64,000 bases of DNA, from the NCBI RefSeq assembly GCF_044647545.1, contig NZ_CP172818.1. One strand, 5' to 3'. The translations under genes were made by a program, and so were the position numbers. Below the pieces are notes generated by a model. It did no database searches. It had not been told where the DNA came from and was given only the letters and a program-made list of their open reading frames with translations. Numbering within the stretch: position 1 is the first letter of the stretch; the number at the start of each line of letters is the position of its first letter. Positions 1 to 54,983 of this stretch are shown here, one piece after another. This DNA comes from Escherichia coli (GTDB lineage Bacteria > Pseudomonadota > Gammaproteobacteria > Enterobacterales > Enterobacteriaceae).

Positions 1-47
1 CAAAATAAAAATTATACATTTAAATAGTGATGCGTTATTCTTCGCGG

Positions 48-152
48 GTTATATGCCTTTATTGTCACAAAGATTATTTTCTGTTGGACCCTTGTTACTG
101 TTTATCCAACAAATAATGAGACAAGCCCGAACAGTCGTCCGGGCTTTTTTTT
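48..152 (+). ncRNA. micC: MicC small regulatory RNA (OmpC-repressing, Hfq-dependent)
   Basis: 5' end GTTATATGCCTTTATTGTCACA matches the MicC seed as I remember it; 3' end is a GC hairpin (GCCCGAACAGTCGTCCGGGC) plus T8 intrinsic terminator; sits immediately beyond the ydbK stop as in K-12. The middle of the RNA was not verified. Confidence 0.7.
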
Positions 153-180
153 AGAATTGGATAATCCTTATCCAGAGCAT

Positions 181-3100
181 TTAATCGGTGTTGCTTTTTT
201 CAGCTTTTCCGGCCATTTGTGCCAGGAAGTCATAGCGTTTTTGCAAATCAGCTGCAGCATCTTTCCATAACTGTTCTGCCACTTCTGGCTGCTGCGAATT
301 CAGACGACGGAAACGCTGCTCGTGAAGTAACGTTTCTTCCAGTGCTTCTGACGGCGGGCGTGAATCCAGCGCCAGCGGTAGTTTGCCTTCATCGGCACGA
401 CGAGGATCAAAGCGATATAACGGCCAGAAGCCGGTAGCAGTGAGTTGGCGCATCTGGTCGTGGCTGAGAGCCAGATCGTAACCATGCTCTTCACACGGGC
501 TATAAGCAATGATCAGCGATGGTCCCGGATACGCTTCCGCTTCCTGAATCGCTTTCACCGTCTGGTTCAGCTGCGCGCCGAGAGAAATCTGCGCCACATA
601 AACATGACCGTACATCATCATACTGACGCCAAGATCTTTACGCGCTTTACGTTTGCCGTGCTCGCCGAACTTAGTTACTGCACCCAGCGGTGTCGCTTTC
701 GACGCCTGACCACCAGTGTTGGAATAGCATTGCGTATCCAGCACCAGAATATTGACGTTTTCCGTCAAACTCAATACATGATCCAGACCACCAAAGCCGA
801 TATCGTAAGCCCAGCCGTCACCACCAATCAGCCAGATTGATTTTTCCACCAGAGCATCTGCGTCACGTAGCAGTTCATGTGCTTCGGCAACATCGTTGAG
901 TTGCTGGCGTAAAGCTGCAACCTGTTCACGACGAATCTCTGGCGTAGCGTCTGATTTCAACGCAGTCAGTAATTCCGCCGGGATTTTATCGGCAAATTGA
1001 TCCAGCAGACGCAGCACGCGGACACGGTGTTGATCGACCGTCAGGCGGAAACCCAGGCCAAATTCGGCGTTATCTTCAAACAGCGAGTTCGCCCATGCCG
1101 GCCCGCGACCGTTGGCATCGGTAGTATACGGTGTAGAGGGCAGGTTACCGCCATAAATTGAAGAACATCCCGTAGCGTTAGCGATCAACATCCGGTCGCC
1201 ATACAGCTGAGTCAGCAATTTAATATACGGCGTCTCGCCACAACCGGAGCAAGCACCGGAATATTCAAACAGCGGTGTAATCAGCTGTGATGTACGAATA
1301 TCAATACGTTCCAGTTTGCTACGGTCGATTTCTGGCAGGTTGAGGAAGAAATCGTAATTGATTTTCTCTTCTTCGACATGTTCCAGCCGCGACATCATAT
1401 TGATGGCTTTAATCTCTGGATTCTGACGGTCTTTCGCCGGGCAAACTTCGACGCACAGGTTACAACCGGTGCAATCTTCCGGAGCCACCTGCAAGACATA
1501 TTTCTGCCCGCGCATATCACGCGATTTCACATCCAGCGAATGCAGGCTGGCAGGGGCGTTTTCCATCGCTTCAGGCGGTACCACTTTTGCGCGAATAGCT
1601 GAGTGTGGGCAAGCAGCGACGCAGTGGTTACATTGGGTACAGAGTTCCTCTTTCCAGATGGGGATCTCTTCGGCGATATTGCGTTTTTCCCAGCGCGTGG
1701 TGCCCATCGGCCAGGTGCCGTCTGGCGGCAGCGCCGAAACGGGGAGGGCATCACCAAGCCCGGCGAGCATCGCCGCGGTTACGGTTTTCACGAAATCAGG
1801 GGCGGCATCGGAAACCACTGGCGGTCGATTGGCGCTGTGCGGATTTACTGGTTGCAGCGGAACTTCTTCTACGGATTCACGTGCCAGCGCCAGAGCCTGC
1901 CAGTTGCGTTCCACCAGATCCTGACCTTTGCTACTGTAACTTTTGGCAATCGCACCCTGCAATTCTGCGAGGGCGCTATCGCCAGGCAGAATTTGCGTAA
2001 GATGGAAAAAAGCCATCTGCATGACGGTATTAATACGGGCCGCCAGGCCACATTCGCGGGCGATTTTCGCCGCGTTAATCACATAGAAGCGCGCTTTTTT
2101 CTGGTTTAACACGGCCTGAACTTCCTGCGGCAAGCGCGACCATACTTCATCTGCGCTGTACGGCGTGTTGAGCAGGAAAATGCCGCCAGGTTTTAAACGT
2201 TCAGCCATCTGATATTTATCGATAAACTGCAACTGGTGGCAGCCAACAAAATCAGCCTGGGGAATCAGATAAGCGGAACGAATCGGCTGCTCGCTCACGC
2301 GAAGGTGAGAAACCGTCAGGCCGCCCGCCTTTTTGGAGTCGTAAACAAAATAGCCCTGTGCGTACCACGGCGTGGAATTACCGATAATCTTGATATTGTT
2401 TTTGGTCGCGGAAACGCTGCCATCACTACCAAGGCCATAAAACAAGGCTTCAAGTTTCGCCGAGTTTGGCAGGGTGTTATCCGGCAACGGCAGTGACAGA
2501 TTGGTCACATCATCGTAAATACCAACCGTAAAGCGCGCTTTCGGTTTAGCCGCGTTGAGCTCGGCAAATACCGCCAGTACACAGTCCGGGCCAAATTCTT
2601 TGGATGAAAGACCATAGCGCCCACCAATGACACGGGGCAGGGTTTCGCGCTCACCATTATTAAAGGCTTCTGCCAGTGCGGTCATCACATCCAGATAGAG
2701 CGGTTCTGCCTGGGCACCGGGTTCTTTGGTTCTGTCCAGTACCGCCACGCTGCGTACGGATCCCGGCAGAGCTTGTAGCAAGTGTTTGGCGGAGAAGGGA
2801 CGGTACAGGCGAACTTTCAGCACGCCGACTTTTTCGCCACGGGTTAGCAGTTCATCAACCACTTCTTCACAGGTGCCAATGGCAGAGCCCATCAGGATAA
2901 TCACCCGTTCCGCTTGCGGATGCCCGTAATACTCAAACGGCTGATACTGACGACCTGTCGCGGCAGCGAAATCATTCATCGCCTGTTCAACATGGTCATA
3001 GACCGCGTTGTACCAGGGGTTGGTGGCTTCGCGAGACTGGAAATAAGTGTCAGGATTGGCGGACGTACCGCGGATCACCGGATGTTCCGGGTTGAGCGCC

Positions 3101-3705
3101 CGGGCGCGATGAGCATCAATTTCGGCCTGCGGCATGAGATCAAGAATAGTGTCATCGGCCAGCGGGACAATTTTATTGATTTCGTGGGACGTGCGGAAAC
3201 CATCAAAGAAATGAATAAATGGCACGCGGCTCTTCAGCGTTGCGATGTGCGAAATGAGAGCAAAGTCTTGCGCTTCCTGGACGTTAGCCGCACACAACAT
3301 CGCGCAACCCGTCTGGCGCACCGCCATAACGTCGGAATGATCGCCAAAAATAGAGAGTGCATGTGTGGCAACGGTACGTGCCGCTACATGCAGGACAAAT
3401 GGCGTCAGTTCGCCTGCCAGTTTGTACAGCGTCGGGATCATCAGCAGCAAACCCTGCGATGACGTAAACGATGTTGAAAGGGCACCCGTCTGCAAAGCGC
3501 CATGCACGGTAGCGATAGCACCCGCTTCCGACTGCATTTCAACCACGCGTGGTGTGTCTCCCCAAACGTTCTTCAAGCCGTTTCCGGCCCAGGCATCAGC
3601 CTGTTCTGCCATCGTGGAACTGGGGGTAATAGGGTAGATGGCGATAACTTCACTGGTGCGAAACGCCACCGAAGCAACCGCGCCATTACCGTCAATAGTA
3701 ATCAT
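181..3705 (-). CDS. ydbK: pyruvate:flavodoxin/ferredoxin oxidoreductase (PFOR, NifJ-like), 1174 aa
   Basis: Single 1174-aa ORF; two 4Fe-4S ferredoxin motifs (CTQCNHCVAACP, CTGCNLCVEVCP) and a TPP-binding GGDGW motif visible in the translation; length matches YdbK. Confidence 0.95.
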   Translation of the reverse strand: MITIDGNGAVASVAFRTSEVIAIYPITPSSTMAEQADAWAGNGLKNVWGDTPRVVEMQSEAGAIATVHGALQTGALSTSFTSSQGLLLMIPTLYKLAGELTPFVLHVAARTVATHALSIFGDHSDVMAVRQTGCAMLCAANVQEAQDFALISHIATLKSRVPFIHFFDGFRTSHEINKIVPLADDTILDLMPQAEIDAHRARALNPEHPVIRGTSANPDTYFQSREATNPWYNAVYDHVEQAMNDFAAATGRQYQPFEYYGHPQAERVIILMGSAIGTCEEVVDELLTRGEKVGVLKVRLYRPFSAKHLLQALPGSVRSVAVLDRTKEPGAQAEPLYLDVMTALAEAFNNGERETLPRVIGGRYGLSSKEFGPDCVLAVFAELNAAKPKARFTVGIYDDVTNLSLPLPDNTLPNSAKLEALFYGLGSDGSVSATKNNIKIIGNSTPWYAQGYFVYDSKKAGGLTVSHLRVSEQPIRSAYLIPQADFVGCHQLQFIDKYQMAERLKPGGIFLLNTPYSADEVWSRLPQEVQAVLNQKKARFYVINAAKIARECGLAARINTVMQMAFFHLTQILPGDSALAELQGAIAKSYSSKGQDLVERNWQALALARESVEEVPLQPVNPHSANRPPVVSDAAPDFVKTVTAAMLAGLGDALPVSALPPDGTWPMGTTRWEKRNIAEEIPIWKEELCTQCNHCVAACPHSAIRAKVVPPEAMENAPASLHSLDVKSRDMRGQKYVLQVAPEDCTGCNLCVEVCPAKDRQNPEIKAINMMSRLEHVEEEKINYDFFLNLPEIDRSKLERIDIRTSQLITPLFEYSGACSGCGETPYIKLLTQLYGDRMLIANATGCSSIYGGNLPSTPYTTDANGRGPAWANSLFEDNAEFGLGFRLTVDQHRVRVLRLLDQFADKIPAELLTALKSDATPEIRREQVAALRQQLNDVAEAHELLRDADALVEKSIWLIGGDGWAYDIGFGGLDHVLSLTENVNILVLDTQCYSNTGGQASKATPLGAVTKFGEHGKRKARKDLGVSMMMYGHVYVAQISLGAQLNQTVKAIQEAEAYPGPSLIIAYSPCEEHGYDLALSHDQMRQLTATGFWPLYRFDPRRADEGKLPLALDSRPPSEALEETLLHEQRFRRLNSQQPEVAEQLWKDAAADLQKRYDFLAQMAGKAEKSNTD

Positions 3706-3978
3706 ATGACACCCTTACATTGCGCAAATGAGGGGCGCACGAAATTGCTGCGCGCCCAGTAGTTATCTTTCAATTTTAGCAAATGGCTTTCTTCTGCATT
3801 TTCGCTTTTGTGTCCCCCATATCAGTGTAATGAATGTTTTGATCAAACAGAGGGCAAAAAAATAGCCATAAAAAAGTAAAAATGCGGGGCAACGCGCAGG
3901 ACAGCTCTCGACGCCGCCCTCTGTGCTGCCTATTATTTATGGCGGTGTCGTTTGGCTTGAAGATCAGAGGAAGAAAAG

Positions 3979-4245
3979 ATGCGAGCAGCGTTTTGGGTAG
4001 GGTGTGCCGCTTTATTATTGTCGGCGTGTAGTAGTGAACCTGTTCAGCAGGCGACTGCGGCGCACGTAGCGCCAGGTTTAAAAGCGTCGATGTCCAGTAG
4101 TGGAGAAGCAAATTGTGCAATGATCGGCGGTTCGCTTTCTGTTGCCCGTCAACTGGATGGTACGGCGATTGGGATGTGTGCATTACCCAACGGCAAACGC
4201 TGTAGCGAACAGTCACTTGCCGCCGGGAGCTGTGGCAGCTATTAA
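3979..4245 (+). CDS. ydbJ: small lipoprotein (DUF333 family), 88 aa
   Basis: 88-aa ORF with lipoprotein signal and lipobox (LLLSAC); position between ydbK and hslJ. Confidence 0.8.
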   Translation: MRAAFWVGCAALLLSACSSEPVQQATAAHVAPGLKASMSSSGEANCAMIGGSLSVARQLDGTAIGMCALPNGKRCSEQSLAAGSCGSY

Positions 4246-4664
4246 TTCATTAAATCCGCCAGCTTATAAGTTAATGTCTGTTTCGCGGTCGCCAGCGTTA
4301 ACTGGTTCGCGGTCAGATCCACTTGTGCACCTTCTTTCAGCATTTCGCTAATGGTGTTATCGAGTTCATTAAGCTGTGGGTTGGCGCACATCATACGGGT
4401 CATTGCCAGTCCTTTGGCTGTCAGTTCACCATTAGACAGTTTGCCTTCACCGCTAAAGCGGTTACACATGCTGCCGGAAATCATCATTTTTTCACCAAAG
4501 CTGATTTCTGGCGGATTTTTATCGCTGGTCACGGGCTTACCGTTTACGCTTTCCAGCACAAAGCGATGATGCTGTAGCTGTTCTGGGGTTACAGCAATTT
4601 TGTCATTACTTACACATCCCGCCATCAGCAGGCTTAGCGCAACAAACGCGGCTACTTTCTTCAT
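4242..4664 (-). CDS. hslJ: heat-shock lipoprotein HslJ, 140 aa
   Basis: ORF 4242-4676 trimmed to the MKKVAAFVALSLLMAGC start (lipobox); 140 aa fits HslJ. Confidence 0.85.
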   Translation of the reverse strand: MKKVAAFVALSLLMAGCVSNDKIAVTPEQLQHHRFVLESVNGKPVTSDKNPPEISFGEKMMISGSMCNRFSGEGKLSNGELTAKGLAMTRMMCANPQLNELDNTISEMLKEGAQVDLTANQLTLATAKQTLTYKLADLMN

Positions 4665-4774
4665 TGTGGTTCTCAATTACAGTTTCTGACTCAGGGCTAT
4701 TTTAAGAATAGAGGATGAAAGGTCTTTGGGGATTATCTGAATAAGCTCCCCTGGAATGCAGGGGAGCGGCAAGA

Positions 4775-5764
4775 TTAAACCAGTTCGTTCGGGCAGGTTT
4801 CGCCTTTTTCCAGATTGCTTAAGTTTTGCAGCGTAGTCTGAGAAATACTGGTCAGAGCTTCTGCTGTCAGGAATGCCTGATGCCCGGTAAACAGCACGTT
4901 GTGGCAGGCAGACAGGCGACGGAATACGTCATCCTGAATTACGTCGTTGGATTTATCTTCAAAGAAAAGATCGCGTTCGTTCTCATACACGTCCATACCC
5001 AACGAACCAATTTTCTGATTTTTCAGCGCTTCAATTGCTGCCTGAGAATCAATCAATGCACCGCGACTGGTATTGACGATCATCACGCCATTTTTCATCT
5101 GTTCGAAGGCAGCTTCGTTCAACAGATGATAGTTTTCCGGTGTCAGCGGGCAGTGCAGAGAGATAACGTCTGATTCAGAGAACAGGGTTGGCAGATCGAC
5201 ATACTCCACACCGAGTTCCAGTGCCGCCGCACTTGGATACGGATCGAACGCCAGCAGACGCATACCAAAACCTTTCAGAATGCGCAGCATCGCCACACCG
5301 ATTTTGCCGGTACCGATAACGCCTGCCGTTTTGCCATACATAGTAAAGCCGGTCAGACCTTCCAGAGAGAAGTTGGCGTCACGGGTACGCTGATACGCGC
5401 GGTGAATACGGCGGTTCAGCGTCATCATCATACCGATGGCATGTTCAGCAACGGCTTCTGGATCATAGGCTGGAACACGGACTACTTTCAGCCCCAGTTC
5501 TTTTGCCGCGTCAAGGTCGACGTTATTGAAACCGGCACAGCGCAGGGCGATATATTTAACGCCGTGCTTTTTCAGCTCTTCCAGCACCGGGCGGCTGCCG
5601 TCATCGTTTACGAAAATACATACCGCTTCGCAGCCATTGGCAGTTTTAGCGGTTTTTTCCGTCAGCAGAAAGTCAAAAAATTCCAGCTCAAAGCCAAAGG
5701 ACTCGTTCACCTGTTGCAGGTACTTCTTGTCGTACTGTTTTGTGCTATAAACGGCGAGTTTCAT
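4775..5764 (-). CDS. ldhA: fermentative D-lactate dehydrogenase (NAD-dependent 2-hydroxyacid dehydrogenase), 329 aa
   Basis: 329-aa ORF MKLAVYSTKQYDKKYLQQVNE..., with the NAD-binding GVIGTGKIG motif of D-isomer 2-hydroxyacid dehydrogenases. Confidence 0.95.
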   Translation of the reverse strand: MKLAVYSTKQYDKKYLQQVNESFGFELEFFDFLLTEKTAKTANGCEAVCIFVNDDGSRPVLEELKKHGVKYIALRCAGFNNVDLDAAKELGLKVVRVPAYDPEAVAEHAIGMMMTLNRRIHRAYQRTRDANFSLEGLTGFTMYGKTAGVIGTGKIGVAMLRILKGFGMRLLAFDPYPSAAALELGVEYVDLPTLFSESDVISLHCPLTPENYHLLNEAAFEQMKNGVMIVNTSRGALIDSQAAIEALKNQKIGSLGMDVYENERDLFFEDKSNDVIQDDVFRRLSACHNVLFTGHQAFLTAEALTSISQTTLQNLSNLEKGETCPNELV

Positions 5765-5971
5765 AAGACTTTCTCCAGTGATGTTGAATCACATTTAAGC
5801 TACTAAAAATATTTTACAAAATTTCAAATATAATTGAAAGCTATGGCGATATTGAAAAATTCATCAACAACTATGCTTAGTGTAGGCGCAACCTTCAACT
5901 GAACGGTTAAACATGCCACAATACCCGTATTGAATGCTTAATTTTTCGCTAAATCAGGATATTAACTACCC

Positions 5972-8611
5972 ATGCTGGGTAAATATAAAGCCGTTCTCGC
6001 GCTGTTATTACTGATTATTCTTGTGCCGTTGACGCTGCTGATGACGCTCGGGCTGTGGGTTCCTACGCTGGCGGGCATCTGGCTACCGCTCGGGACACGT
6101 ATTGCATTAGATGAAAGCCCACGCATTACGCGTAAAGGTTTAATCATTCCCGATCTCCGTTATCTGGTGGGAGATTGTCAGCTTGCGCATATCACCAACG
6201 CCAGCCTTTCACATCCCAGCCGCTGGTTATTGAACGTCGGCACGGTAGAACTTGATTCTGCTTGTCTGGCGAAATTGCCGCAGACGGAGCAATCGCCAGC
6301 CGCTCCAAAAACCCTCGCGCAGTGGCAGGCCATGTTGCCTAACACCTGGATCAATATCGATAAACTGATTTTTTCTCCCTGGCAGGAATGGCAGGGAAAA
6401 CTCTCTCTCGCATTAACCTCCGATATCCAGCAACTGCGTTATCAGGGCGAAAAAGTTAAATTTCAAGGCCAGCTGAAAGGGCAACAACTTACAGTCAGCG
6501 AACTGGATGTCGTCGCGTTTGAAAATCAGCCGCCGGTTAAACTGGTGGGGGAATTTACTATGCCGCTCGTGCCGGATGGACTTCCGGTAAGTGGGCATGC
6601 TACTGCGACGTTAAACTTGCCGCAGGAACCGTCACTGGTGGATGCAGAGCTGGACTGGCAGGAAAATAGCGGGCAATTGATCGTGCTGGCACGGGATAAC
6701 GGCGATCCGTTGCTCGATTTGCCGTGGCAAATTACTCGTCAACAATTGACCGTAAGCGATGGTCGCTGGAGCTGGCCGTATGCAGGTTTTCCTTTGAGTG
6801 GCCGACTGGGTGTCAAAGTCGACAACTGGCAGGCAGGGCTCGAGAACGCTCTGGTCAGCGGACGACTGAGTGTGCTGACCCAGGGGCAAGCGGGTAAGGG
6901 CAACGCGGTGCTTAATTTTGGCCCTGGAAAATTAAGCATGGATAACAGCCAGCTGCCTATGCAGCTGACCGGTGAAGCGAAACAGGCGGATCTCATTTTA
7001 TACGCCCGCTTACCTGCGCAGCTAAGCGGAAGTCTGACTGACCCAACGCTGGCCTTTGAGCCAGGCGCGTTATTACGTTCGAAGGGAAGAGTCATCGATT
7101 CGCTGGACATCGATGAAATCCGCTGGCCTTTAGCGGGTGTAAAAGTCACCCAACGTGGTGTTGACGGACGTTTGCAGGCCATTTTGCAGGCGCATGAAAA
7201 TGAACTGGGCGATTTCGTGCTGCATATGGATGGACTGGCGAATGATTTTCTCCCTGACGCTGGCCGCTGGCAGTGGCGCTACTGGGGAAAAGGCAGTTTT
7301 ACACCGATGAATGCCACCTGGGATGTCGCAGGAAAGGGTGAGTGGCATGACAGCACGATTACGCTGACCGATCTCTCCACCGGTTTCGACCAGTTACAAT
7401 ACGGTACGATGACGGTTGAAAAGCCGCGACTAATTCTCGACAAGCCCGTCGTCTGGGTACGTGACGCACAGCATCCCTCCTTTAGCGGCGCGCTGTCACT
7501 GGACGCCGGGCAAACGCTGTTCACTGGCGGCAGTGTGTTACCGCCATCAACCTTAAAATTTAGCGTCGATGGACGCGATCCGACGTATTTCCTCTTTAAA
7601 GGCGATTTACATGCTGGTGAGATTGGCCCGGTTCGGGTAAATGGTCGCTGGGACGGTATTCGTCTGCGCGGTAACGCCTGGTGGCCTAAACAATCACTGA
7701 CCGTATTCCAGCCGCTGGTGCCACCCGACTGGAAGATGAACTTACGCGATGGCGAACTATATGCCCAGGTCGCATTTTCTGCTGCGCCTGAACAAGGATT
7801 CCGCGCGGGAGGGCACGGTGTGTTGAAAGGCGGTAGTGCCTGGATGCCAGATAATCAGGTTAACGGTGTCGATTTTGTCCTGCCTTTCCGTTTTGCCGAT
7901 GGAGCCTGGCATCTGGGGACTCGCGGCCCCGTTACGTTGCGAATTGCCGAAGTGATTAATCTGGTGACAGCGAAAAATATTACGGCTGATTTGCAAGGTC
8001 GTTATCCGTGGACTGAAGAAGAACCATTGCTGTTGACTGATGTTAGCGTTGATGTGTTAGGCGGTAACGTACTGATGAAACAATTACGTATGCCGCAACA
8101 TGACCCGGCGCTGTTGCGGCTGAATAATCTTTCCTCCAGCGAACTGGTTAGCGCCGTCAATCCGAAACAATTCGCCATGTCCGGGGCATTTAGTGGTGCA
8201 TTGCCGTTATGGCTAAACAACGAAAAATGGATAGTGAAAGATGGTTGGCTGGCAAATAGCGGGCCAATGACCTTGCGGCTGGATAAAGACACCGCAGATG
8301 CGGTGGTGAAAGACAATATGACTGCGGGTTCAGCAATTAACTGGTTGCGCTATATGGAAATTAGCCGTTCATCGACAAAAATTAATTTAGATAATCTCGG
8401 TTTATTAACCATGCAGGCCAACATTACAGGTACCAGTCGCGTTGATGGTAAAAGCGGTACGGTAAATCTTAATTACCATCATGAAGAGAATATTTTTACG
8501 CTGTGGCGCAGTTTACGCTTTGGCGATAATCTCCAGGCATGGTTGGAGCAGAACGCACGTCTGCCGGGAAATGACTGTCCGCAAGGAAAAGAGTGTGAGG
8601 AAAAACAATGA
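5972..8611 (+). CDS. ydbH: AsmA-like large inner-membrane-anchored periplasmic protein, 879 aa
   Basis: 879-aa ORF with N-terminal transmembrane anchor; stop overlaps the ynbE start (ATGA), indicating translational coupling. Confidence 0.9.
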   Translation: MLGKYKAVLALLLLIILVPLTLLMTLGLWVPTLAGIWLPLGTRIALDESPRITRKGLIIPDLRYLVGDCQLAHITNASLSHPSRWLLNVGTVELDSACLAKLPQTEQSPAAPKTLAQWQAMLPNTWINIDKLIFSPWQEWQGKLSLALTSDIQQLRYQGEKVKFQGQLKGQQLTVSELDVVAFENQPPVKLVGEFTMPLVPDGLPVSGHATATLNLPQEPSLVDAELDWQENSGQLIVLARDNGDPLLDLPWQITRQQLTVSDGRWSWPYAGFPLSGRLGVKVDNWQAGLENALVSGRLSVLTQGQAGKGNAVLNFGPGKLSMDNSQLPMQLTGEAKQADLILYARLPAQLSGSLTDPTLAFEPGALLRSKGRVIDSLDIDEIRWPLAGVKVTQRGVDGRLQAILQAHENELGDFVLHMDGLANDFLPDAGRWQWRYWGKGSFTPMNATWDVAGKGEWHDSTITLTDLSTGFDQLQYGTMTVEKPRLILDKPVVWVRDAQHPSFSGALSLDAGQTLFTGGSVLPPSTLKFSVDGRDPTYFLFKGDLHAGEIGPVRVNGRWDGIRLRGNAWWPKQSLTVFQPLVPPDWKMNLRDGELYAQVAFSAAPEQGFRAGGHGVLKGGSAWMPDNQVNGVDFVLPFRFADGAWHLGTRGPVTLRIAEVINLVTAKNITADLQGRYPWTEEEPLLLTDVSVDVLGGNVLMKQLRMPQHDPALLRLNNLSSSELVSAVNPKQFAMSGAFSGALPLWLNNEKWIVKDGWLANSGPMTLRLDKDTADAVVKDNMTAGSAINWLRYMEISRSSTKINLDNLGLLTMQANITGTSRVDGKSGTVNLNYHHEENIFTLWRSLRFGDNLQAWLEQNARLPGNDCPQGKECEEKQ

Positions 8612-8793
8612 AAATTTTACTGGCTGCGTTGACGTCATCTTTTATGCTGGTTGGCTGTACGCCTCGCATTGAAGTCGCTGCCCCTAAGGAACCGATCACT
8701 ATCAATATGAACGTTAAAATTGAGCATGAGATCATCATCAAGGCAGACAAAGATGTCGAAGAGCTGCTTGAAACTCGTAGCGATCTTTTCTGA
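8608..8793 (+). CDS. ynbE: small lipoprotein YnbE, 61 aa
   Basis: 61-aa ORF MKILLAALTSSFMLVGC with lipobox; overlaps ydbH stop by 4 bp. Confidence 0.85.
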   Translation: MKILLAALTSSFMLVGCTPRIEVAAPKEPITINMNVKIEHEIIIKADKDVEELLETRSDLF

Positions 8794-8800
8794 GGCGATG

Positions 8801-9127
8801 ATGAAGAAAACATTACTTCTTTGTGCGTTTCTTGTTGGGCTGGTAAGCAGCAATGTAATGGCATTGACTCTGGATGAAGCCAGAACTCAGGGGCGGGTAG
8901 GTGAAACATTTTATGGTTATCTGGTTGCGCTGAAAACAGATGCTGAAACAGAGAAATTAGTAAACGACATTAATGCCGAACGTAAAGCGAGTTACCAACA
9001 ACTGGCAAAGCAAAATAATGTGTCGGTAGATGATATCGCGAAACTCGCCGGGCAAAAGCTCGTAGCTCGGGCCAAACCGGGGGAATATGTACAAGGGATA
9101 AACGGTAAATGGGTGCGAAAATTTTAA
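8801..9127 (+). CDS. ydbL: periplasmic protein YdbL (DUF1318), 108 aa
   Basis: ORF 8720-9127 trimmed to MKKTLLLCAFLVGLVSSNVMA signal peptide start, 8 bp after the ynbE stop; 108 aa. Confidence 0.8.
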   Translation: MKKTLLLCAFLVGLVSSNVMALTLDEARTQGRVGETFYGYLVALKTDAETEKLVNDINAERKASYQQLAKQNNVSVDDIAKLAGQKLVARAKPGEYVQGINGKWVRKF

Positions 9128-9260
9128 TAGCAAAACCGCACTATCGGGATAACGCTACAGGAGAAGGCGATTAATCTATTTTCCGGAAACAAGATGATTA
9201 TTCAAAAACTCCTGTCAAATTGCCTTTCGCCCTGAAAATGAATAGTCAAATATCTGTTTT

Positions 9261-9299
9261 AACTAATTAGCGTTGCTGTACATGCAACGCTAATTAGTT
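9261..9299. repeat. 39-bp hairpin-forming palindrome (16-bp perfect arms, 7-nt loop) at the 3' ends of ydbL and feaR
   Basis: AACTAATTAGCGTTGC-tgtacat-GCAACGCTAATTAGTT read directly; abuts the feaR stop codon (9298-9300); no flanking T-run. Confidence 0.8.
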
Positions 9300-10203
9300 A
9301 GCGGAATTTACGTCGATACTCGCCTGGCGTCATCCCAAAGCGTTGCTTAAATACCGTTGAAAAATGACTCTGGTCGGAAAATCCCCAATGAAAGCCAATG
9401 CCTGCCAGTTTTTCATCATCTGCGGCATGGCGAATCGCATCTGCACAAAAATCGAGACGACGGTTACGGATATATTGCGCGACTACCAAACCTTTATCGG
9501 CAAACATTCGGTACAAACTACGTACTGACATACCTGTCTCTCCGGCTATCCACTCCGGGCGTAATATCTCTTCGCGAATATTATCGTCTATCAACGTAAC
9601 CACTTTTTGAAACTGACGTTCACGACGAGGTTGAACAGATTCCCGCTGATGAAGTACCGGGCGCAGCAGACACACCATCGCCTGTAGCGCAGCTTCACTT
9701 TCTGTTTCAGAAAGTGCCGGATTATTCATGCTCTCCTGTAACAGGCGATGACTGAGTTGCACCATGGGTAAGTCAGCGTCCAGTCTTTCTGCGCAGATAG
9801 GTTTTTGATGGGGAAAATATTGTTCCAGCAGAGTGCGTGGCAAAAGTAATGAAATCTGTTTAGAAGACTCCTGCCAGTAAAGCGAACAGGGGCGTGAGGC
9901 ATCGAGTAACGTAATATCGCCAGCGCCAATCTGCACCTGACGCTCATCCTGCTCCATTATTGCCTGACCACTAAGCTGAAAAACGGTGTAAAACCAGGCA
10001 TCGTCGCTGCCTTTTACTTCCTGCCAGGTGCGGGATAAATTCACCCCGCTGGTTGTCACGGTACTCAGCTTTAGTCCTTTGGCAAAATGCGTGTCCAGTA
10101 CACCCGTGTAACGCTCAGTCAGCAGGCGTCCGGTAAAATTTCCGCATACCTGATTGATTTGGGAAAGCCATTGCTGAAACTCATTATCCACTGCGGGGTT
10201 CAT
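9298..10203 (-). CDS. feaR: AraC/XylS-family transcriptional activator of feaB/tynA, 301 aa
   Basis: 301-aa ORF with C-terminal AraC-type HTH; divergent from feaB. Confidence 0.9.
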   Translation of the reverse strand: MNPAVDNEFQQWLSQINQVCGNFTGRLLTERYTGVLDTHFAKGLKLSTVTTSGVNLSRTWQEVKGSDDAWFYTVFQLSGQAIMEQDERQVQIGAGDITLLDASRPCSLYWQESSKQISLLLPRTLLEQYFPHQKPICAERLDADLPMVQLSHRLLQESMNNPALSETESEAALQAMVCLLRPVLHQRESVQPRRERQFQKVVTLIDDNIREEILRPEWIAGETGMSVRSLYRMFADKGLVVAQYIRNRRLDFCADAIRHAADDEKLAGIGFHWGFSDQSHFSTVFKQRFGMTPGEYRRKFR

Positions 10204-10322
10204 GGCACGTTTTCGCTCTGTGAAATGTATTTTTATTGTTGCATTTGTGTTGCAATAAACGAAGCTAATGAGCCTGACTATAGGAAATAAGTCTTGTCAG
10301 GCATAGAGACATAAGCGGTTAT

Positions 10323-10368
10323 TGTCACGATTTGCGGAGCTTGTCACAGCTGACAAAGCGAATGTCAC
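10323..10368 (+). promoter_or_regulatory. three direct TGTCAC repeats in the feaR-feaB intergenic region (candidate FeaR operator / feaB promoter)
   Basis: TGTCAC at 10323, 10342 and 10363, spaced 19-21 bp, about 70-110 bp upstream of the feaB ATG. Confidence 0.45.
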
Positions 10369-10435
10369 AGCGAAAAAAGTGACTTTTCTTGTCGCTGCGT
10401 ACACTGAAATCACACTGGGTAAATAATAAGGAAAA

Positions 10436-11932
10436 GTGATGACAGAGCCGCATGTAGCAGTATTAAGCCAGGTCCAACAGTTTCTCGATCGTCAACACGG
10501 TCTTTATATTGATGGTCGTCCTGGCCCCGCACAAAGTGAAAAACGGTTGGCGATCTTTGATCCGGCCACCGGGCAAGAAATTGCGTCTACTGCTGATGCC
10601 AACGAAGCGGATGTAGATAACGCAGTCATGTCTGCCTGGCGGGCCTTTGTCTCGCGTCGCTGGGCCGGGCGATTACCCGCAGAGCGTGAACGTATTCTGC
10701 TACGTTTTGCTGATCTGGTGGAGCAGCACAGTGAGGAGCTGGCGCAACTGGAAACCCTGGAGCAAGGCAAGTCAATTGCCATTTCCCGTGCTTTTGAAGT
10801 GGGCTGTACGCTGAACTGGATGCGTTATACCGCCGGGTTAACGACCAAAATCGCGGGTAAAACGCTGGACTTGTCGATTCCCTTACCCCAGGGGGCGCGT
10901 TATCAGGCCTGGACGCGTAAAGAGCCGGTTGGCGTAGTGGCGGGAATTGTGCCATGGAACTTTCCGTTGATGATTGGTATGTGGAAGGTGATGCCAGCAC
11001 TGGCAGCAGGCTGTTCAATCGTGATTAAGCCTTCGGAAACCACGCCACTGACGATGTTGCGCGTGGCGGAACTGGCCAGCGAGGCTGGTATCCCTGATGG
11101 CGTTTTTAATGTCGTCACCGGGTCAGGTGCTGTATGCGGCGCGGCCCTGACGTCACATCCTCATGTTGCGAAAATCAGTTTTACCGGTTCAACCGCGACG
11201 GGAAAAGGTATTGCCAGAACTGCTGCTGATCACTTAACGCGTGTAACGCTGGAACTGGGCGGTAAAAACCCGGCAATTGTATTAAAAGATGCTGATCCGC
11301 AATGGGTTATTGAAGGCTTGATGACCGGAAGCTTCCTGAATCAAGGGCAAGTATGCGCCGCCAGTTCGCGAATTTATATTGAAGCGCCGTTGTTTGACAC
11401 GCTGGTTAGTGGATTTGAGCAGGCGGTAAAATCGTTGCAAGTGGGACCGGGGATGTCACCTGTTGCACAGATTAACCCTTTGGTTTCTCGTGCGCACTGC
11501 GACAAAGTGTGTTCATTCCTCGACGATGCGCAGGCACAGCAAGCAGAGCTGATTCGCGGGTCGAATGGACCACCAGAGGTATTATGTTGCGCCAACGCTA
11601 GTGCGGTAAAATCCCGATGCTAAATTGCGCTTAACTCGTGAAGAGGTGTTTGGTCCGGTGGTAAACCTGGTGCGAGTAAGCGGTGGAAGAGGCGTTACAA
11701 CTGGCAAACGACACGGAATATGGCTTAACTGCCAGTGTCTGGACGCAAAATCTCTCCAGGCTCTGGAATATAGCGATCGCTTACAGGCAGGGACGGTGTG
11801 GGTAAACAGCCATACCTTGATTGACGCTAACTACCGTTTGGTGGGATGAAGCAGTCAGGAACGGGCCGTGATTTTGGCCCCGACTGGCTGGACGGTTGGT
11901 GTGAAACTAAGTCGGTGTGTGTACGGTATTAA
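10436..11932 (+). pseudogene. feaB: phenylacetaldehyde dehydrogenase, frameshifted in its 3' third
   Basis: First ~385 codons intact (ORF 10436-11623, aldehyde dehydrogenase family); expected length 499 aa. Remainder recoverable only in shifted frames (ORF 11625-11849 [18 protein letters not shown]...); original stop context ...KSVCVRY* at 11930-11932. Confidence 0.8.
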
Positions 11933-11953
11933 TATTGGTTCGCTAATTAAGTA

Positions 11954-11979
11954 AAAAACGGCACCTGGTGCCGTTTTTT
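11954..11979. terminator. bidirectional intrinsic terminator between convergent feaB and tynA
   Basis: A6-CGGCACC..GGTGCCG-T6 hairpin flanked by A and T runs. Confidence 0.7.
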
Positions 11980-11991
11980 GTCTGAAAACAA

Positions 11992-14283
11992 TCACTTATC
12001 TTTCTTCAGCGCCCCTAGCGTTGGCGTTTCATAAAGAAGTTCCATGGTTTAAGCAGAGTATGTACCCATTCGGTCGGCATAATCGGCCACTCTTCAGCAC
12101 GGGCCACATGTGTGGTGCCGGTGGGTCATCCAGACAACGGCGTCGGTGTTGTCCAGCGACTCGTTATCTTTACTGTATTGTCCAAGACCGGTGTCATCAG
12201 TAGAACGGTTCAGGATATTTGCCTTCCGGGAAACGCTCGCCAGGATGATAACGCGTTACCCAGAAAGCTGCTTTGTCCATAAAGCTTAAACGATGATAGA
12301 TCCACTCATCCCAGGCGCCACTGGGCACCTTTTGCTACCGGGTGAGTACCGCCTGCATAAGGAATAATTTGATAGGAAACTGGATTGCCCATGCGGTTCT
12401 CTTTGTTGCGGGTTACTCAACAGACGAATCATGCCCCGGATCAAACTACGGCATCCTGTTCATTGCCGATGTTGTACTGATTAACTTGCATCAAGGTACT
12501 GGTGCGTCGGCCACCGGCAGTATTCGGTTTCCACTGGGTCCATCGCCACCAGGCTGTTATTCTCGCCATCTACATAAGGAATCGAGGCAGAAATTATCGA
12601 TCTGTTTGGTGTCAGTACCCACGATACTGTGATCGATAAGCGTGCCGTAGCGCGTGTCATCTTTCGCCGTCTCATCGTGCATGGTTTTCGCTTTAACACC
12701 TTTCACCGCTTCGATGCCCGTAGCACCGGCATCAATGCCAATAGTGCCGTTTTCATGGAAGATCCAGTCAAAATGTAGTCATAGTTACCCACTGTACTGA
12801 TCCAGCGCACCACTGACTCCCAGCATTCAGGTACTGACGTTGGGCTGGCCCATTTCCTGATGCTTATACTCCGGCCCGGCATAACGTTTCAAATACCGCG
12901 ATAGCGCGAGGATCTCCATCGGCACGCCAGTGTAGTCGGCGATGGTTTCATTAAGGAGCACTGCGTTAGACGGGGCATCTTTACCACGGCGAAATTGGTG
13001 AGGTTAGCGTGCCCATACCGTAGTCACCAGAGTCCAGATACGCTTTAAAGTACCAGCCAATATCCAGGATCACCGTAAGGCACAATAATGTCGCCGAGGA
13101 GAACCTTCGTGCATGACTTTGCGTTTGGTGCCGATATTGGTATATAGTCACGGTGGAGATCATAGGCCCGACGCGAGAGTTCATGCTGAGGTGAAAATCC
13201 CAGTTCCGCCAGTGAATAGTATCTCGCCAGTAATGGTGTAATTTTTACCTTCAGGCTCAATGATTTGCATAGGCTTGACTGCCGGAGCAACGCGGTCACG
13301 GCTATCAAATGGGCGTGCGGTCATTCACACGGAACTCCGGACCTTCTTCAATCTTAACGATTTTTTTCTGTTTCTGATCAACGACCGCCACCAGGTTTTC
13401 GATGGGATGTGCCCAGTAGTTCCATCGCCGACAGTCAAGATAGCTGATGACTTTGAGCAACCGGGCATCTTGTTTCAGGCCATCTTTACCATCGAAATAA
13501 CCTACGGTCAGCGGCGTGGTAATCACTTTTTTCGCATCAGTAATACCGCGTTTCTTCACGGCAGCGGCAAATTCTTCACTGTTGTTAATAATGTTCTGCA
13601 CACTGGCGAAATCATCCAGCAACACCATACCCGTGGCGTGTTTAATGGGTTCCAGGAGAGCAGTTTGTTGTTTTGCAGATCCACCACCGCTTCGATGATA
13701 TGTTTGCCGTCGAGCATAATGACGTCGGCTTTGCGCGGCTGGTCAACCGGTTTGTTTTCCAGCGCAAACGCCCAGACAGCTTCTTTATCTGGCGGTAGCA
13801 GGAGATCTCAGTAAAACAGGGTATTGGGTTTGAAGTCCCGCGGAAGCTTTAACAATTTCAACGGCCTGTTTAATTTCGTACCACAGTTCACGCATTAAGT
13901 GGGTGAGGGCGCTTTTATTACCTGAAAGGTTTGATCCAGACCGGACTGGAAAACATCGTTAATAAAGGTGTCGCAAAACCCAGGCCTTATTGTCTTTCAT
14001 ACGCTCCCGGCACTTGCAGTGCCAAGGTAGCCATTAACAATTGCTGTTTTGCGCACCAGGCTTCACTTTCACGTACGCGCCATCTTTAATCAGGGTAAAG
14101 ATCTGGGCGTAGTCGTCCCACTGCACATCGGCACCAAATTCTTTAAGCGTTTCATCCATTGGCACCATATGCGCTTCACCACCGTGGGCAAATACCGGCG
14201 CTTGCCAGGCGAAACTTAAGGCGACTGCCAACGCCAGGGTTGTTTTACGGGCAGAATCCGGAGAAAGAGGGCTTCCAGTTATT
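11992..14283 (-). pseudogene. tynA: copper/topaquinone amine oxidase (tyramine oxidase), heavily frameshifted
   Basis: Minus-strand fragments 14034-14315, 13305-13628, 13045-13308, 12981-13184 and 12481-12699 translate to successive pieces of TynA (e.g. ARKTTLALAVALSFAWQAPVFAHGGEAHMVPMD; MVLLDDFASVQNIINNSEEFAAAVKKRGITDAKK) separated by frame changes; stop ...LKKDK* at 11992-11994; start codon region also altered. Expected 757 aa. Confidence 0.75.
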
Positions 14284-14485
14284 AACCTCGTCAGATGTTG
14301 TGTTCTTGTTAGCAACCGCGCTCTGTGGGCGGTTTAGTCAGGTTCACATTATGAGTACTGATGCAAAGAAATCCTGCACCTCAGAGTTATTTGGCAGGTG
14401 TGCCCACTTTTTCATACAGTGGGTGCCCTGAAAATCAATGTACACATCATGCATAATGTGACAACGTCACAAAAGTTAGTGAAAT

Positions 14486-14516
14486 GAAAAAGGGCAACTG
14501 TTCGGGCCGTTGCCCT
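14486..14516 (-). terminator. intrinsic terminator downstream of paaZ
   Basis: GGGCAAC..GTTGCCC hairpin followed on the minus strand by a T5 run. Confidence 0.6.
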
Positions 14517-14527
14517 TCATTCACCGA

Positions 14528-16563
14528 TTAATCGACAAAATCACCATATCCTGGCCACCAGCGTCAGAATTGAATACAGCGCCACCGGGGTTTGATGCTG
14601 ATTGAATACCTCTACCGCCCATTCCACCACCTGTTGGTTTTTCTTCTGCGCTACGCTGTTTTTTCAGCGTCTTGCGCTTACAGGTGAGACGCACCTGGAT
14701 GGTATCGCCTGGCTTTACGGGTTCGATAAGCGCAAGTTTTCCAGCCCATAATTAGCAATGACCGGACCGACACCGGCATCGACAAACAGACCCGCAGAGC
14801 CGCAGAAAAAGCACAAAATACCCATGCACCACACGCTCACCGAAAATAGATTCGGCAGCAGCAGAATATTATCCATATGCGCATAGAAATAATCGCCGCT
14901 GAGGCAAGCAAAGTTAACAATATCGGCCTCTGTCATTGTGCGGCGGGAGTGGCAGGTATCCGCCTGGTTGTAGCTCCTCAAAATATTTGCGGAACGGATG
15001 AATACGATCTTCTTCGACTTTCGCACCACGCACCCACTGTTTACTGATAGCTGCAAGCATCGTCGGACTACCCTGAACAGCGGTTCGCTGCGTGTGATCC
15101 TTCACCCGCTCGTAAACCACCTAATTCTTCACCGCCTCCTGCGCGACCAGGCCCACCATGTAACAGTTGTGGCAGTCGGAGAGCCATGCCGGTGGATTCT
15201 TTTGCCGATTCCTCATTGAGGATCTGAATTCGCCCATGCGTACGTGCCGCGTCGGTAATAAACTGACGCGCAATTTGCGGATCAGCCGTCACCAGCGTTC
15301 CGCAAGGCTACCGCCGCCTGCACAAGCCAGTTGCAGAGCATGTCGCTGGTTTTGTGCTGGCATCAGCGTTGCGACAGGGCCAAAGGCTTCTGTTGCATGT
15401 ACCGCCGGTGTTTCATCCGGCTGCGGACAGTACAATAAGGTTGGCGGGAAAGAGCACCCGCAGCAGATAAATCCGCCTGACCACCGAGGCGAATCTCGCA
15501 TCCTGCAGCCAGCAATATGTTCACTTTTTCCTGCACATCGGCACGCTGCTCAGCATTTACCAGTGCGCCCATATTCACGCCTTCCTGAGCAGGATCACCG
15601 ACCACGACTTTCTGTAATCGCGCAACCAGGACGATTCACTGACAGCATTAACCAATGCCTGCGGCGCGATAATCCGCCGGATTGCCGTACATTTTTGCCC
15701 GGCTTTTGTGGTCATCTCACGCACAACTTCACGAATAAACAGCGCAAACTCCGAGTTAAATGCGGGTAACATCTTCGCCCAGTACGCAGCAGTTCAGGGA
15801 ATCAGCTTCCATAGTGAAGGGGATAGATTTGGCGACGATATTTGGCTGAACTCGCGGCGTCTCTGCAGGTCGCCGCTGACCCGTGAAAGTCACCACATCC
15901 TGGCTGTCCAGATAATCCAAAAGGTCGCCCGCACTACCGCAGATCAGACTAATTGCGCCTTCGGGAACAAGACCACTATCGACAATTGATTTCACCATCG
16001 CCTGAGTACGTTGGGCCGTCGCGGTAGCTGGTTTGATGATGGCTGGCATTCCGCCCAGCCACGTTGGTGCCAGCTTCCGGCGTTTTGCCACAGGGGAAGT
16101 TAAAGGCGTTAATATGCACTGCCACGCCTGAGCTTTGAGGTCAGTACATGGCGCGCGGCAAATCCACCTTCTTTCGATAAGGGGATCAATTCATCTTCCG
16201 GCCACAGCGTATCGTCGGCGGCTGCCCGGCTACCGAGGCTGGCGTAAGTAAATAACGTCCCAATGCCACCTTCAAATCAACCGAACTGTTGCCGCGTTGC
16301 GCCTGTTTGCGCAGAAAGACATAGAAGCGCTCTTTTTTCACTCAGCAGATGTTTAGCGACCGCTTTAAGCATCGCCGCACGTTCGATAAAGGTCATCACG
16401 CAGAAGCAGCCTTTTCAATGGCAAACTGCAACGGGCCACCGCCATATAGACCTTTCACTGGTCACTTCCCATAACGCCTCGCCGCTGATAGCGTGGTGAA
16501 TCAAACGGCTACCACCCCGCCAGACTGCCAGGTACCGGATAAGAAACTGGCTAACTGCTGCAT
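14528..16563 (-). pseudogene. paaZ: bifunctional oxepin-CoA hydrolase / aldehyde dehydrogenase, multiply frameshifted
   Basis: ATG intact at 16561-16563 and stop ...GDFVD* at 14528-14530, but interior split into fragments (15756-16091, 15575-15772, 15363-15605, 15068-15292, 14715-15056) that each match PaaZ segments; span 2036 nt versus 2046 expected (681 aa). Confidence 0.75.
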
Positions 16564-16792
16564 CGCTACTCTCCAGATGTTTCACATTTATGTTGCTAAT
16601 AGTTAAATTGCGAATCATAAAAAGCAAGGGTTCTTTTAACGAAATGTTAACTATGCAAATATGTATCACAACTGCGGAAAACATTAATGCACTGATAAAT
16701 AATGATTTATAAAAAATCGGGTGCGAAATCCGTCACAGTTCAAGCATACAAAATTTGTGATTTTAGTTAACCATTGTGTAACTTTCATAAAC

Positions 16793-16834
16793 AATGTGAT
16801 TCGTGTTTTTAATTAATTCGCGAACTTGGAATCG
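16793..16834. promoter_or_regulatory. PaaX-type operator half-site in the paaZ-paaA divergent promoter region
   Basis: AATGTGATTCGTGTT at 16793-16807 fits the PaaX box consensus WWTRTGATTCGYGWT as I remember it; an imperfect inverted partner GAATCG lies 26 nt downstream. Confidence 0.45.
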
Positions 16835-16847
16835 TAAAGGTAATAAC

Positions 16848-17773: not shown

Positions 17774-17784
17774 GGAGATTCAAA

Positions 17785-18069
17785 ATGAGTAATGTTTATT
17801 GGCCGTTATACGAAGTTTACCCGTTCGTGGCAAACAGGGCTTATCACACCGCCATGTTGGCAGTTTTTACATGCTGCCGATGAGCGGATGGCACTGAAAA
17901 TGCCGGTGATTGTTACACCGTCGTAGCGAAGGATGTTCAATTTGGGTGGTGAAGGCGAGTGAAATTGTTGCCTCGCAACCGGAAGAACGCGGTGAATTTT
18001 TTGATCCGGCTGAAGCAAGGTCTATCGCCATCCAACGTTTTACACCATCCCTGATGGCATTCAACATGA
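17785..18069 (+). pseudogene. paaB: epoxidase subunit B, frameshifted
   Basis: ATG at 17785 with MSNVYWPLYEV N-terminus; body recovered in a shifted frame (17910-18149 ...SEGCSIWVVKASEIVASQPEERGEFFDPAE...). Expected 95 aa; 3' end approximate. Confidence 0.65.
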
Positions 18070-18077
18070 GGTCGGAA

Positions 18078-18820: not shown

Positions 18821-18834
18821 CAGAGGAGGTGGGT

Positions 18835-19325: not shown

Positions 19326-19332
19326 GGATGCC

Positions 19333-26346: not shown

Positions 26347-26446
26347 CGTATCGTCTGGCCCTGGTGGGGTAAAGCGCCAGGGCCAGAAGTCGATACGACC
26401 TGTGCTATGATTCATAAATCACAACAATAACAACAGACTGAAGCGA

Positions 26447-54833: not shown

Positions 54834-54983
<150 letters not shown>

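What the first reader, a model, noticed from the sequence alone, without database searches (positions are those of the whole stretch)
48..152. MicC sRNA at the left edge, identified from its seed and terminator
MicC is recognisable from its 5' seed and terminator and sits where expected beside ydbK. I could not confirm from memory that its central region is the wild-type sequence, so it is a useful control locus for testing whether low-level sequence changes extend outside the main decay block.
Basis: partly seen in the sequence, partly recalled or inferred. Interest (0 to 1): 0.35.

Follow-up and report, generated by a model that had tools for sequence, protein, structure and literature searches.

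The report
MicC small RNA, natural variant allele
This interval is micC, the well-known small RNA that represses the porin OmpC, present here as a natural variant allele carried by about 9% of fully sequenced E. coli, so it is ordinary and shows none of the sequence damage seen elsewhere in the window.

Summary
Window 48-152 (+) is micC. Rfam's MicC model matches 45-160 at 105.7 bits (gathering score 90, E 1.7e-15). The interval aligns end to end with the annotated MG1655 micC (b4427). It lies convergent to nifJ/ydbK (181-3705, minus strand).

There are 12 substitutions, a 5-nt deletion in the loop of the first stem-loop, and one fewer U. This is a natural allele, not decay:
- Window 1-400 is 100% identical to many independent E. 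coli genomes.
- Window 1-9505 is 100% identical to strain FDAARGOS_497.
- The variant centre occurs in 501 of 5426 complete genomes.

The functional parts are unchanged: the -10 element, a conserved upstream motif, the 22-nt seed (16 nt perfectly complementary to the ompC leader), the stem of stem-loop 1, and the terminator with its U tail.

As a control locus it is clean. The sequence damage is confined to about 11.6-20.9 kb, inside a K-12-derived insert (9506-36915) in an otherwise ST648-like backbone.

One side observation: the two E. coli micC alleles differ by 22% over a ~165-bp patch. Adjacent intergenic DNA is identical and the flanking genes differ by about 1-3%. The origin of this patch is unresolved.

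Verdict: known gene, low interest.

The parts
2..18 (+). Conserved upstream promoter element AAAATAAAAATTATACA (-46..-30). It contains a -35-like hexamer TATACA at 13-18. The A-rich part is cut by the window edge.
   Evidence: Positions -46..-31 are invariant or nearly invariant in 35 MicC loci from Escherichia, Salmonella, Citrobacter, Klebsiella, Raoultella, Superficieibacter and Pseudocitrobacter. The role as -35/UP element or regulator site is inferred from position only.
36..41 (+). -10 hexamer TATTCT, 17-bp spacer from TATACA and 6 nt before the start G48.
   Evidence: The hexamer is identical in the window-type and K-12-type alleles, and TAT is invariant across genera. The simple sigma-70 scan did not call it, because it matches 8/12 and the threshold is 9/12.
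48..152 (+). micC transcript, about 103-105 nt: 5' end G48 to the end of the U tail.
   Evidence: Rfam RF00121 at 105.7 bits against gathering score 90. End-to-end alignment with annotated MG1655 micC b4427.
48..69 (+). Seed / antisense region (MicC nt 1-22). Nt 1-16 (48-63) are a perfect complement of ompC leader -30..-15.
   Evidence: Identical in all 36 aligned MicC sequences for nt 1-19. The complement is read directly from the K-12 ompC leader. The duplex of the 5' 30 nt with the leader is -26.5 kcal/mol, against -11.7 +/- 2.7 for 500 shuffles (best -22.3).
70..81 (+). A/U-rich single-stranded linker; 3 substitutions relative to K-12 (70, 72, 73).
   Evidence: Alignments A1 and A3. This region is variable across genera.
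82..111 (+). Stem-loop 1: stem 82-88 / 105-111 (7 bp) and a 16-nt loop at 89-104. The loop is 5 nt shorter than in K-12 and carries 5 substitutions. The closing pair is A-U here and G.U in K-12.
   Evidence: Folding gives -6.6 kcal/mol, z -2.35. Across 35 distinct sequences the helix is 82.8% paired, and 4 of 7 pairs have changes on both sides.
112..119 (+). A/U-rich single-stranded stretch before the terminator (AAUAAUGA); 3 substitutions relative to K-12.
   Evidence: A role in Hfq binding is inferred from general knowledge of Hfq-dependent sRNAs and was not tested.
120..152 (+). Rho-independent terminator: stem 125-132 / 137-144, extended by A-U pairs, with an 8-U tail at 145-152.
   Evidence: Identical to K-12 except for one fewer U. 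The helix is 99% paired across genera. Folding gives -13.6 kcal/mol, z -3.55. On the minus strand the same hairpin pairs even better and is followed by a U-rich stretch, 37 nt after the nifJ stop, so it may also terminate nifJ (inference).
181..3705 (-). nifJ (= ydbK, pyruvate:flavodoxin oxidoreductase), the convergent neighbour that gives the synteny.
   Evidence: An ORF of 1174 aa. It is annotated as nifJ in the identical genome FDAARGOS_497 and as ydbK in NC_000913.3.

Best explanation
Window 48-152 is an intact micC gene. It is transcribed rightward from a weak sigma-70-type promoter (-35-like TATACA at 13-18, -10 TATTCT at 36-41, start at G48) and ends at a rho-independent terminator (125-152). 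The RNA should work as described for E. coli MicC: with Hfq, its 5' end pairs with the ompC mRNA leader just upstream of the Shine-Dalgarno sequence and blocks translation initiation. The copy here is not the K-12 allele. It is a natural second allele of E. coli, found in about 9% of complete genomes, including IAI39, a strain named ST648, and FDAARGOS_497. It differs from K-12 only in the promoter spacer, the linker, the loop of stem-loop 1 and the A/U stretch before the terminator. Shown here: identity, boundaries, conservation, structure, complementarity and allele frequency. Inferred from published work on K-12 MicC: transcription, Hfq dependence and OmpC repression.
For: - Family match: Rfam MicC at 105.7 bits against gathering score 90, E 1.7e-15, full model length.
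- Reference match: full-length alignment to annotated micC b4427, with nt 1-22 and the terminator identical.
- Synteny: nifJ/ydbK is convergent at 181-3705. ompN lies 227 bp upstream in a genome that is 100% identical over window 1-9505.
- Natural allele: window 1-400 is 100% identical to at least 25 listed genomes from unrelated sources. The variant centre (66-125) is present in 501 of 5426 genomes, and 452 of these are identical.
- Target complementarity: 16 contiguous nt pair with the ompC leader at -30..-15, with duplex energy far beyond shuffles. The ompC leader is >=99% identical in 5339 of 5370 genomes.
- Structure: the stem-loop 1 stem and the terminator are supported across genera, with 93.2% of cells paired against 32-56% when partners are slid, and with compensatory C-G/U-A changes. 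The window allele forms all 7 stem pairs.
- Published mechanism: a 109-nt MicC represses OmpC through a 22-bp duplex near the start codon and is divergent from ompN (PMC5745476, citing Chen et al. 2004).
Against: - The score is 19 bits below the K-12 allele (125.0 bits), because of the shorter and altered loop.
- The simple promoter and terminator scans called nothing in 1-400. The promoter matches only 8/12, and the terminator stem has an internal A.C mismatch.
- No expression, Hfq-binding or OmpC data exist for this allele.
- RefSeq/PGAP annotates no feature at this position in the matching genomes.
Confidence: 0.95

Rival explanations
1. The central-region differences from K-12 are part of the low-level sequence decay or editing seen elsewhere in the window, so micC here is a damaged copy.
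For: There are 12 substitutions and a 5-nt deletion relative to MG1655 micC. The Rfam score is lower than for the K-12 allele. The window does contain a heavily altered block at 11572-20933.
Against: The same sequence, base for base, is present in hundreds of independent natural genomes. Window 1-9505 has zero differences from FDAARGOS_497. The differences avoid the seed, the stem of stem-loop 1, the -10 element, the upstream motif and the terminator, and the one stem change converts G.U to A-U. The decay block has a different signature: 1-nt indels, and substitutions spread over all codon positions.
Confidence: 0.02
2. The window-type allele is a functionally diverged MicC. Its altered promoter spacer and discriminator, linker, and stem-loop 1 loop would change expression level, stability, Hfq binding or secondary targets relative to K-12 MicC. 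The repression of ompC would be retained.
For: A ~165-bp patch (-94..+71) differs by 37/171 between alleles. This is as much as between Escherichia species, while the adjacent 135 bp are identical. The allele is stable in 501 genomes with few variants. Differential micC expression among clinical lineages has been reported without a promoter explanation in the strains examined (PMC7177473). MicC has OmpC-independent phenotypes in ExPEC (bioRxiv 10.64898/2026.07.27.741068).
Against: The changed positions are the ones that also vary freely between genera, which is what neutral drift of unconstrained positions predicts. The seed and the target site are invariant. No functional data exist.
Confidence: 0.2
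3. The interval is not an RNA gene. It is either a small protein gene (the 33-aa ORF at 53-154) or merely the nifJ transcription terminator.
For: An ATG ORF spans 53-154 on the plus strand. The hairpin at 125-144 folds well on the minus strand and lies 37 nt after the nifJ stop.
Against: The ORF starts 5 nt after the transcription start and has no Shine-Dalgarno sequence. The 5-nt indel between alleles shifts its frame, and reading the K-12 allele by eye gives a stop after 17 codons. A terminator alone does not explain the invariant 5' 19-22 nt, the conserved promoter, or the full-length covariance-model match. The terminator may serve both genes, which is compatible with micC.
Confidence: 0.01

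Closest known systems
E. coli K-12 MicC (b4427, Rfam RF00121)
   Same: Same locus (ompN-micC-ydbK/nifJ) and same start. Nt 1-22 are identical. The stem of stem-loop 1 is the same. The terminator is identical. The -10 element and the upstream motif are the same.
   Different: 12 substitutions, a 5-nt shorter loop and one fewer U in the RNA. There are 8 substitutions in the promoter spacer and discriminator within the window (positions 18, 24, 26-29, 32, 42). The Rfam score is 105.7 against 125.0 bits.
Salmonella MicC (represses ompC and, inside the coding sequence, ompD)
   Same: Same seed (nt 1-21 identical), same architecture, same terminator core and same upstream motif.
   Different: Different linker and loop sequence. 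The stem of stem-loop 1 uses C-G where E. coli has U-A. The ompD target is absent from E. coli (own knowledge; Pfeiffer et al. 2009, not read here).
MicF (represses ompF; divergent from ompC)
   Same: Analogous logic: an Hfq-dependent antisense sRNA, encoded divergently from another porin gene, that blocks translation initiation of a major porin (PMC5745476).
   Different: Unrelated sequence and family, and a different target. It is not in this window.

Membership tests
MicC (Rfam RF00121) | Scores at or above the curated gathering threshold of the covariance model over its full length | tested here: met
   105.7 bits against gathering score 90, model positions 1-123 of 123, E 1.7e-15.
MicC (Rfam RF00121) | 5' end complementary to the ompC mRNA leader near the ribosome-binding site | tested here: met
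   MicC nt 1-16 are a perfect complement of ompC -30..-15. The duplex energy is -26.5 kcal/mol, against -11.7 +/- 2.7 for shuffles. The leader is >=99% identical in 5339 of 5370 E. coli genomes. The leader of the window's own strain is not in the window.
MicC (Rfam RF00121) | Conserved genomic position between ompN and ydbK/nifJ, divergent from ompN and convergent with nifJ | tested here: met
   nifJ lies at 181-3705 on the minus strand in the window. ompN is beyond the left edge but is present 227 bp upstream in FDAARGOS_497, which is 100% identical over window 1-9505.
MicC (Rfam RF00121) | Internal stem-loop plus a rho-independent terminator with a U tail (the Hfq-binding module of enterobacterial sRNAs) | tested here: met
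   Both helices form in the window allele. Both are supported across 35 sequences, with 93.2% of cells paired and compensatory changes in stem-loop 1. The U tail is 8 nt.
MicC (Rfam RF00121) | Own promoter giving a discrete ~109-nt transcript | tested here: inconclusive
   A conserved -10 element (TATTCT) and upstream motif sit at the correct distance from G48. The consensus scan found no promoter, and no transcript data are available.
MicC (Rfam RF00121) | Hfq-dependent repression of OmpC synthesis | not testable with these tools
   Known for the K-12 allele (PMC5745476, citing Chen et al. 2004) and for UTI89 (bioRxiv 10.64898/2026.07.27.741068). Never tested for this allele, as far as the searched literature shows.

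The most novel reading that the evidence does not exclude
E. coli carries two deeply diverged micC alleles. The window-type allele is present in 501 of 5426 complete genomes, including IAI39 and ST648-type strains. It differs from the common K-12-type allele by 22% over a sharply bounded ~165-bp patch covering the promoter and the first 71 nt of the RNA. This is as much as between Escherichia species. The adjacent intergenic DNA is identical, and ompN and nifJ differ by about 1-3%. This could be a micro-import from an unsampled lineage or an old polymorphism. It could give these clinically important lineages a different MicC expression level or an altered secondary target set, and hence different porin regulation.
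Probability: 0.15. Interest if true: 0.35.

Novelty: already known. Interest (0 to 1): 0.1.

Why it matters
The practical value is as a control. micC, and the whole of window 1-9505, is base-for-base natural sequence, so the heavy substitution and indel load at about 11.6-20.9 kb is local and does not spread to the left edge.

It also carries a warning. Comparison with K-12 alone would wrongly flag micC as mutated, because a natural allele differs from K-12 in about 16% of alignment columns. The same applies to primers or probes designed on the K-12 central region: they would mismatch in about 9% of E. coli genomes, including ST648-type strains in which porin regulation is clinically relevant.

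Tried and rejected
- Promoter and terminator scan. The consensus scan of 1-400 found nothing. The promoter matches 8/12, below the threshold of 9/12. The terminator stem has an internal A.C mismatch. This reflects the limits of the scan and is not evidence of absence.
- Full-length duplex prediction. Folding full-length MicC against the ompC leader gave meaningless long duplexes, because intramolecular structure is ignored. Only the result for the 5' 30 nt was used.
- Chen et al. 2004 (PMC522180) is not held. Its content is cited through PMC5745476.
- Scan of GTDB species representatives with ATGCCTTTATTN{45,75}GACAAGCCCG. It returned 39 loci. Five are chance matches outside Enterobacteriaceae (L014, L017, L019, L023, L026). 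None of the 34 real MicC loci carries the window-type centre, so no donor species was found.
- Literature on micC allelic variation. PMC3318445, PMC4114697, PMC7177473, PMC5745476 and the 2026 bioRxiv preprint do not mention it.
- The 33-aa ORF at 53-154 was rejected as a gene (see rival explanations).
- Phylogroup assignment of the 501 carriers could not be done with these tools. Calling IAI39 and ST648 phylogroup F rests on my own knowledge.

Full report
**Observation.** The left edge of the window reads GTTATATGCCTTTATTGTCAC... from position 48 and ends in a G+C-rich hairpin (125-144) followed by eight T (145-152). A scan of the whole window against Rfam 15 at gathering thresholds gives three hits. 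One is RF00121 MicC at 45-160 (+), with 105.7 bits against a gathering score of 90, E 1.7e-15, and model positions 1-123 of 123. In NC_000913.3 micC (b4427) is annotated at 1437121-1437231, between ompN and ydbK. Window 48-152 aligns with it end to end. The ORF at 181-3705 on the minus strand is nifJ, which is the same gene as ydbK. The observation and its coordinates are therefore confirmed.

**Is the central region wild type?** It is not the K-12 sequence. Relative to MG1655 there are 12 substitutions (window 70, 72, 73, 88, 91, 95, 96, 101, 104, 112, 117, 118), a 5-nt deletion in the loop of the first stem-loop, and 8 rather than 9 terminal T. The promoter spacer also differs, at positions 18, 24, 26-29, 32 and 42. 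It is nevertheless a natural allele:
- Window 1-400 is 100% identical to at least 25 listed complete genomes from humans, dogs, birds, a dolphin and wastewater.
- The region 40-165 is >=99% identical in 497 genomes and 80-90% identical in about 4900.
- The allele-specific centre (66-125) is found in 501 of 5426 genomes. Of these, 452 are identical and 49 have one or two changes; IAI39 is among the 49.
- The K-12-type allele scores 125.0 bits and a one-base variant of the window type scores 107.8 bits, so the lower score is a property of the allele.

**Anatomy and conservation.** I collected 34 enterobacterial MicC loci from GTDB species representatives (five further hits were chance matches) and aligned them with both E. 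coli alleles.
- Nt 1-19 and the terminator core are invariant.
- The named structure (stem-loop 1 stem at window 82-88/105-111, plus the terminator) has 93.2% of cells paired, against 32-56% when partners are slid by 1-3 columns. Four of the seven stem-loop 1 pairs show changes on both sides.
- The window allele forms all seven stem pairs. Its one stem substitution turns K-12's G.U into A-U.
- The other differences fall in the linker, the loop and the A/U stretch before the terminator. These are also the positions that vary between genera.
- Upstream, AAAATAAAAATTATAC (-46..-31; window 2-17) is invariant or nearly so in 35 loci of at least seven genera. TATTCT sits at -12..-7.
- The simple sigma-70 scan did not call this promoter, because it matches 8/12.

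**Mechanism.** MicC nt 1-16 are the perfect complement of ompC leader -30..-15, immediately upstream of the Shine-Dalgarno AGAGGG. The duplex of the 5' 30 nt with the leader is -26.5 kcal/mol, against -11.7 +/- 2.7 for 500 shuffles (best -22.3). The ompC leader (-80..+10) is >=99% identical in 5339 of 5370 genomes, so the target site is essentially fixed in E. coli, including most carriers of this allele. Published work on the K-12 allele describes a 109-nt, Hfq-associated RNA. It blocks 30S binding through a 22-bp duplex near the ompC start codon, and it is transcribed divergently from ompN (PMC5745476, citing Chen et al. 2004). Repression of OmpC has also been seen in ExPEC strain UTI89 (bioRxiv 10.64898/2026.07.27.741068). 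Applying this mechanism to the window allele is an inference from the identical seed, structure and terminator. Expression and Hfq dependence cannot be tested here.

**Rivals.**
- Decay reaching micC is excluded by the base-for-base matches to natural genomes and by zero differences over 1-9505 against FDAARGOS_497.
- The 33-aa ORF at 53-154 has no ribosome-binding site, and its frame is broken by the 5-nt indel between alleles.
- The hairpin also folds well on the minus strand, 37 nt after the nifJ stop. It may terminate both convergent genes, which is compatible with micC.
- A functionally diverged allele cannot be excluded. This is the novel case.

**Allele divergence (side finding).** I compared FDAARGOS_497 with a K-12-type strain over 6 kb. 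There are 37 differences within about 165 bp (-94..+71 relative to the start), against 0-7 per 100 bp in ompN and nifJ. In this patch the two alleles differ at 37/171 positions. That is as far apart as either allele is from four other Escherichia species representatives (33-45/171). The adjacent 135 bp upstream are identical between the alleles (0/135) and differ from those species at 12-15/135. These outgroups share the window-type base at 14 sites, mostly upstream of the promoter. They share the K-12-type base at 19 sites, mostly in the RNA body and including the loop deletion. Four sites are ties. Rare intragenic recombinants exist, such as EC2202095. No species representative carries the window-type centre. 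I found no mention of this dimorphism in the papers searched. Its origin is unresolved.

**Context of the control.** The window is a mosaic.
- Regions 1-9505 and 36916-64000 match FDAARGOS_497 at 100% and 99.993%.
- Region 9506-36915 (feaR through paaY, and ydbA with IS2 and IS30) is absent from that genome, apart from the short paaX'-paaY segment at 27242-27968. The rest is K-12 sequence, with zero differences over long stretches.
- Inside this region, 11572-20933 carries 294 substitutions and 188 small indels relative to K-12. The substitutions are spread almost evenly over codon positions (tynA 18/18/27). Natural nifJ divergence gives 7/2/78.
- No complete RefSeq E. coli genome matches 9300-34000 better than K-12 at 97.8%, or the 8800-11500 junction better than 99.3%.
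- micC lies in the untouched natural flank.

**Verdict.** This is a correctly identified, already known sRNA gene, carried as a natural non-K-12 allele. Interest is low.

Noticed in passing
window 9506-36915, especially 11572-20933: The window is a mosaic. The flanks 1-9505 and 36916-64000 match strain FDAARGOS_497 at 100% and 99.993%. Region 9506-36915 (feaR-feaB-tynA-paaZ-paaA..K-paaXY and ydbA::IS2/IS30) is largely absent from that genome and is K-12 sequence. Inside it, 11572-20933 has 294 substitutions, 89 small insertions and 99 small deletions relative to K-12. The substitutions are spread nearly evenly over codon positions and have a strand-asymmetric spectrum (G>A 69 against C>T 24; A>C 29 against T>G 3). 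No complete RefSeq E. coli genome matches the block or its left junction better than K-12 (97.8% and 99.3%). This looks chimeric and artificially or erroneously mutated, not like natural pseudogene decay.
   Followed up: partly
window 27242-27968 (paaX remnant and paaY): This segment is of the native FDAARGOS_497 type (0 substitutions; 10 substitutions against K-12). It lacks two single C bases, at about 27923 and 27957, that both FDAARGOS_497 and K-12 have. These would frameshift the 3' end of paaY.
   Followed up: partly
window 30800-30820: A small cluster of indels and one substitution relative to K-12, just before the IS2 insertion in ydbA. The K-12-like insert is otherwise identical to MG1655 there.
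   Followed up: no
window 52154 and 54060: These are the only two differences (T/G and G/A) from FDAARGOS_497 across the 27 kb of 36916-64000.
   Followed up: no
window 54355-54418 (-) and 54978-55114 (-): Rfam gathering-level hits to RydC (92.5 bits) and to the sok antitoxin RNA of the hokB locus (72.4 bits). hokB is annotated at the corresponding place in FDAARGOS_497.
   Followed up: no
window 2-18, and L009-L047 upstream of micC: A 16-17-nt A/T-rich element, AAAATAAAAATTATAC(A), at -46..-30 of micC is invariant or nearly so from Klebsiella and Raoultella to Escherichia, while the promoter spacer next to it varies freely. It may be a combined UP/-35 element or a regulator site. PMC5745476 reports that the regulators of micC are largely unknown.
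   Followed up: partly
L001 2915-3079 against L002 (window -46 to 118): The two E. coli micC alleles differ by 22% over a sharply bounded ~165-bp patch. The adjacent 135 bp are identical, and ompN and nifJ differ by about 1-3%. Divergence within the patch equals that between Escherichia species. The origin is unresolved.
   Followed up: partly
window 125-144 (-), 37 nt downstream of the nifJ stop at 181-183: On the minus strand the micC terminator hairpin pairs better: the A.C mismatch becomes G.U. It is followed by a U-rich stretch, so it probably acts as a bidirectional terminator shared by micC and nifJ.
   Followed up: partly
L048 (NZ_CP033850.1) 9298-9657 and 25953-26953: The natural backbone strain FDAARGOS_497 has deletion scars: a feaR remnant fused to a paaX remnant, with no feaB-tynA-paa genes and no ydbA. 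It also has a frameshifted gap (gapC) pseudogene.
   Followed up: no
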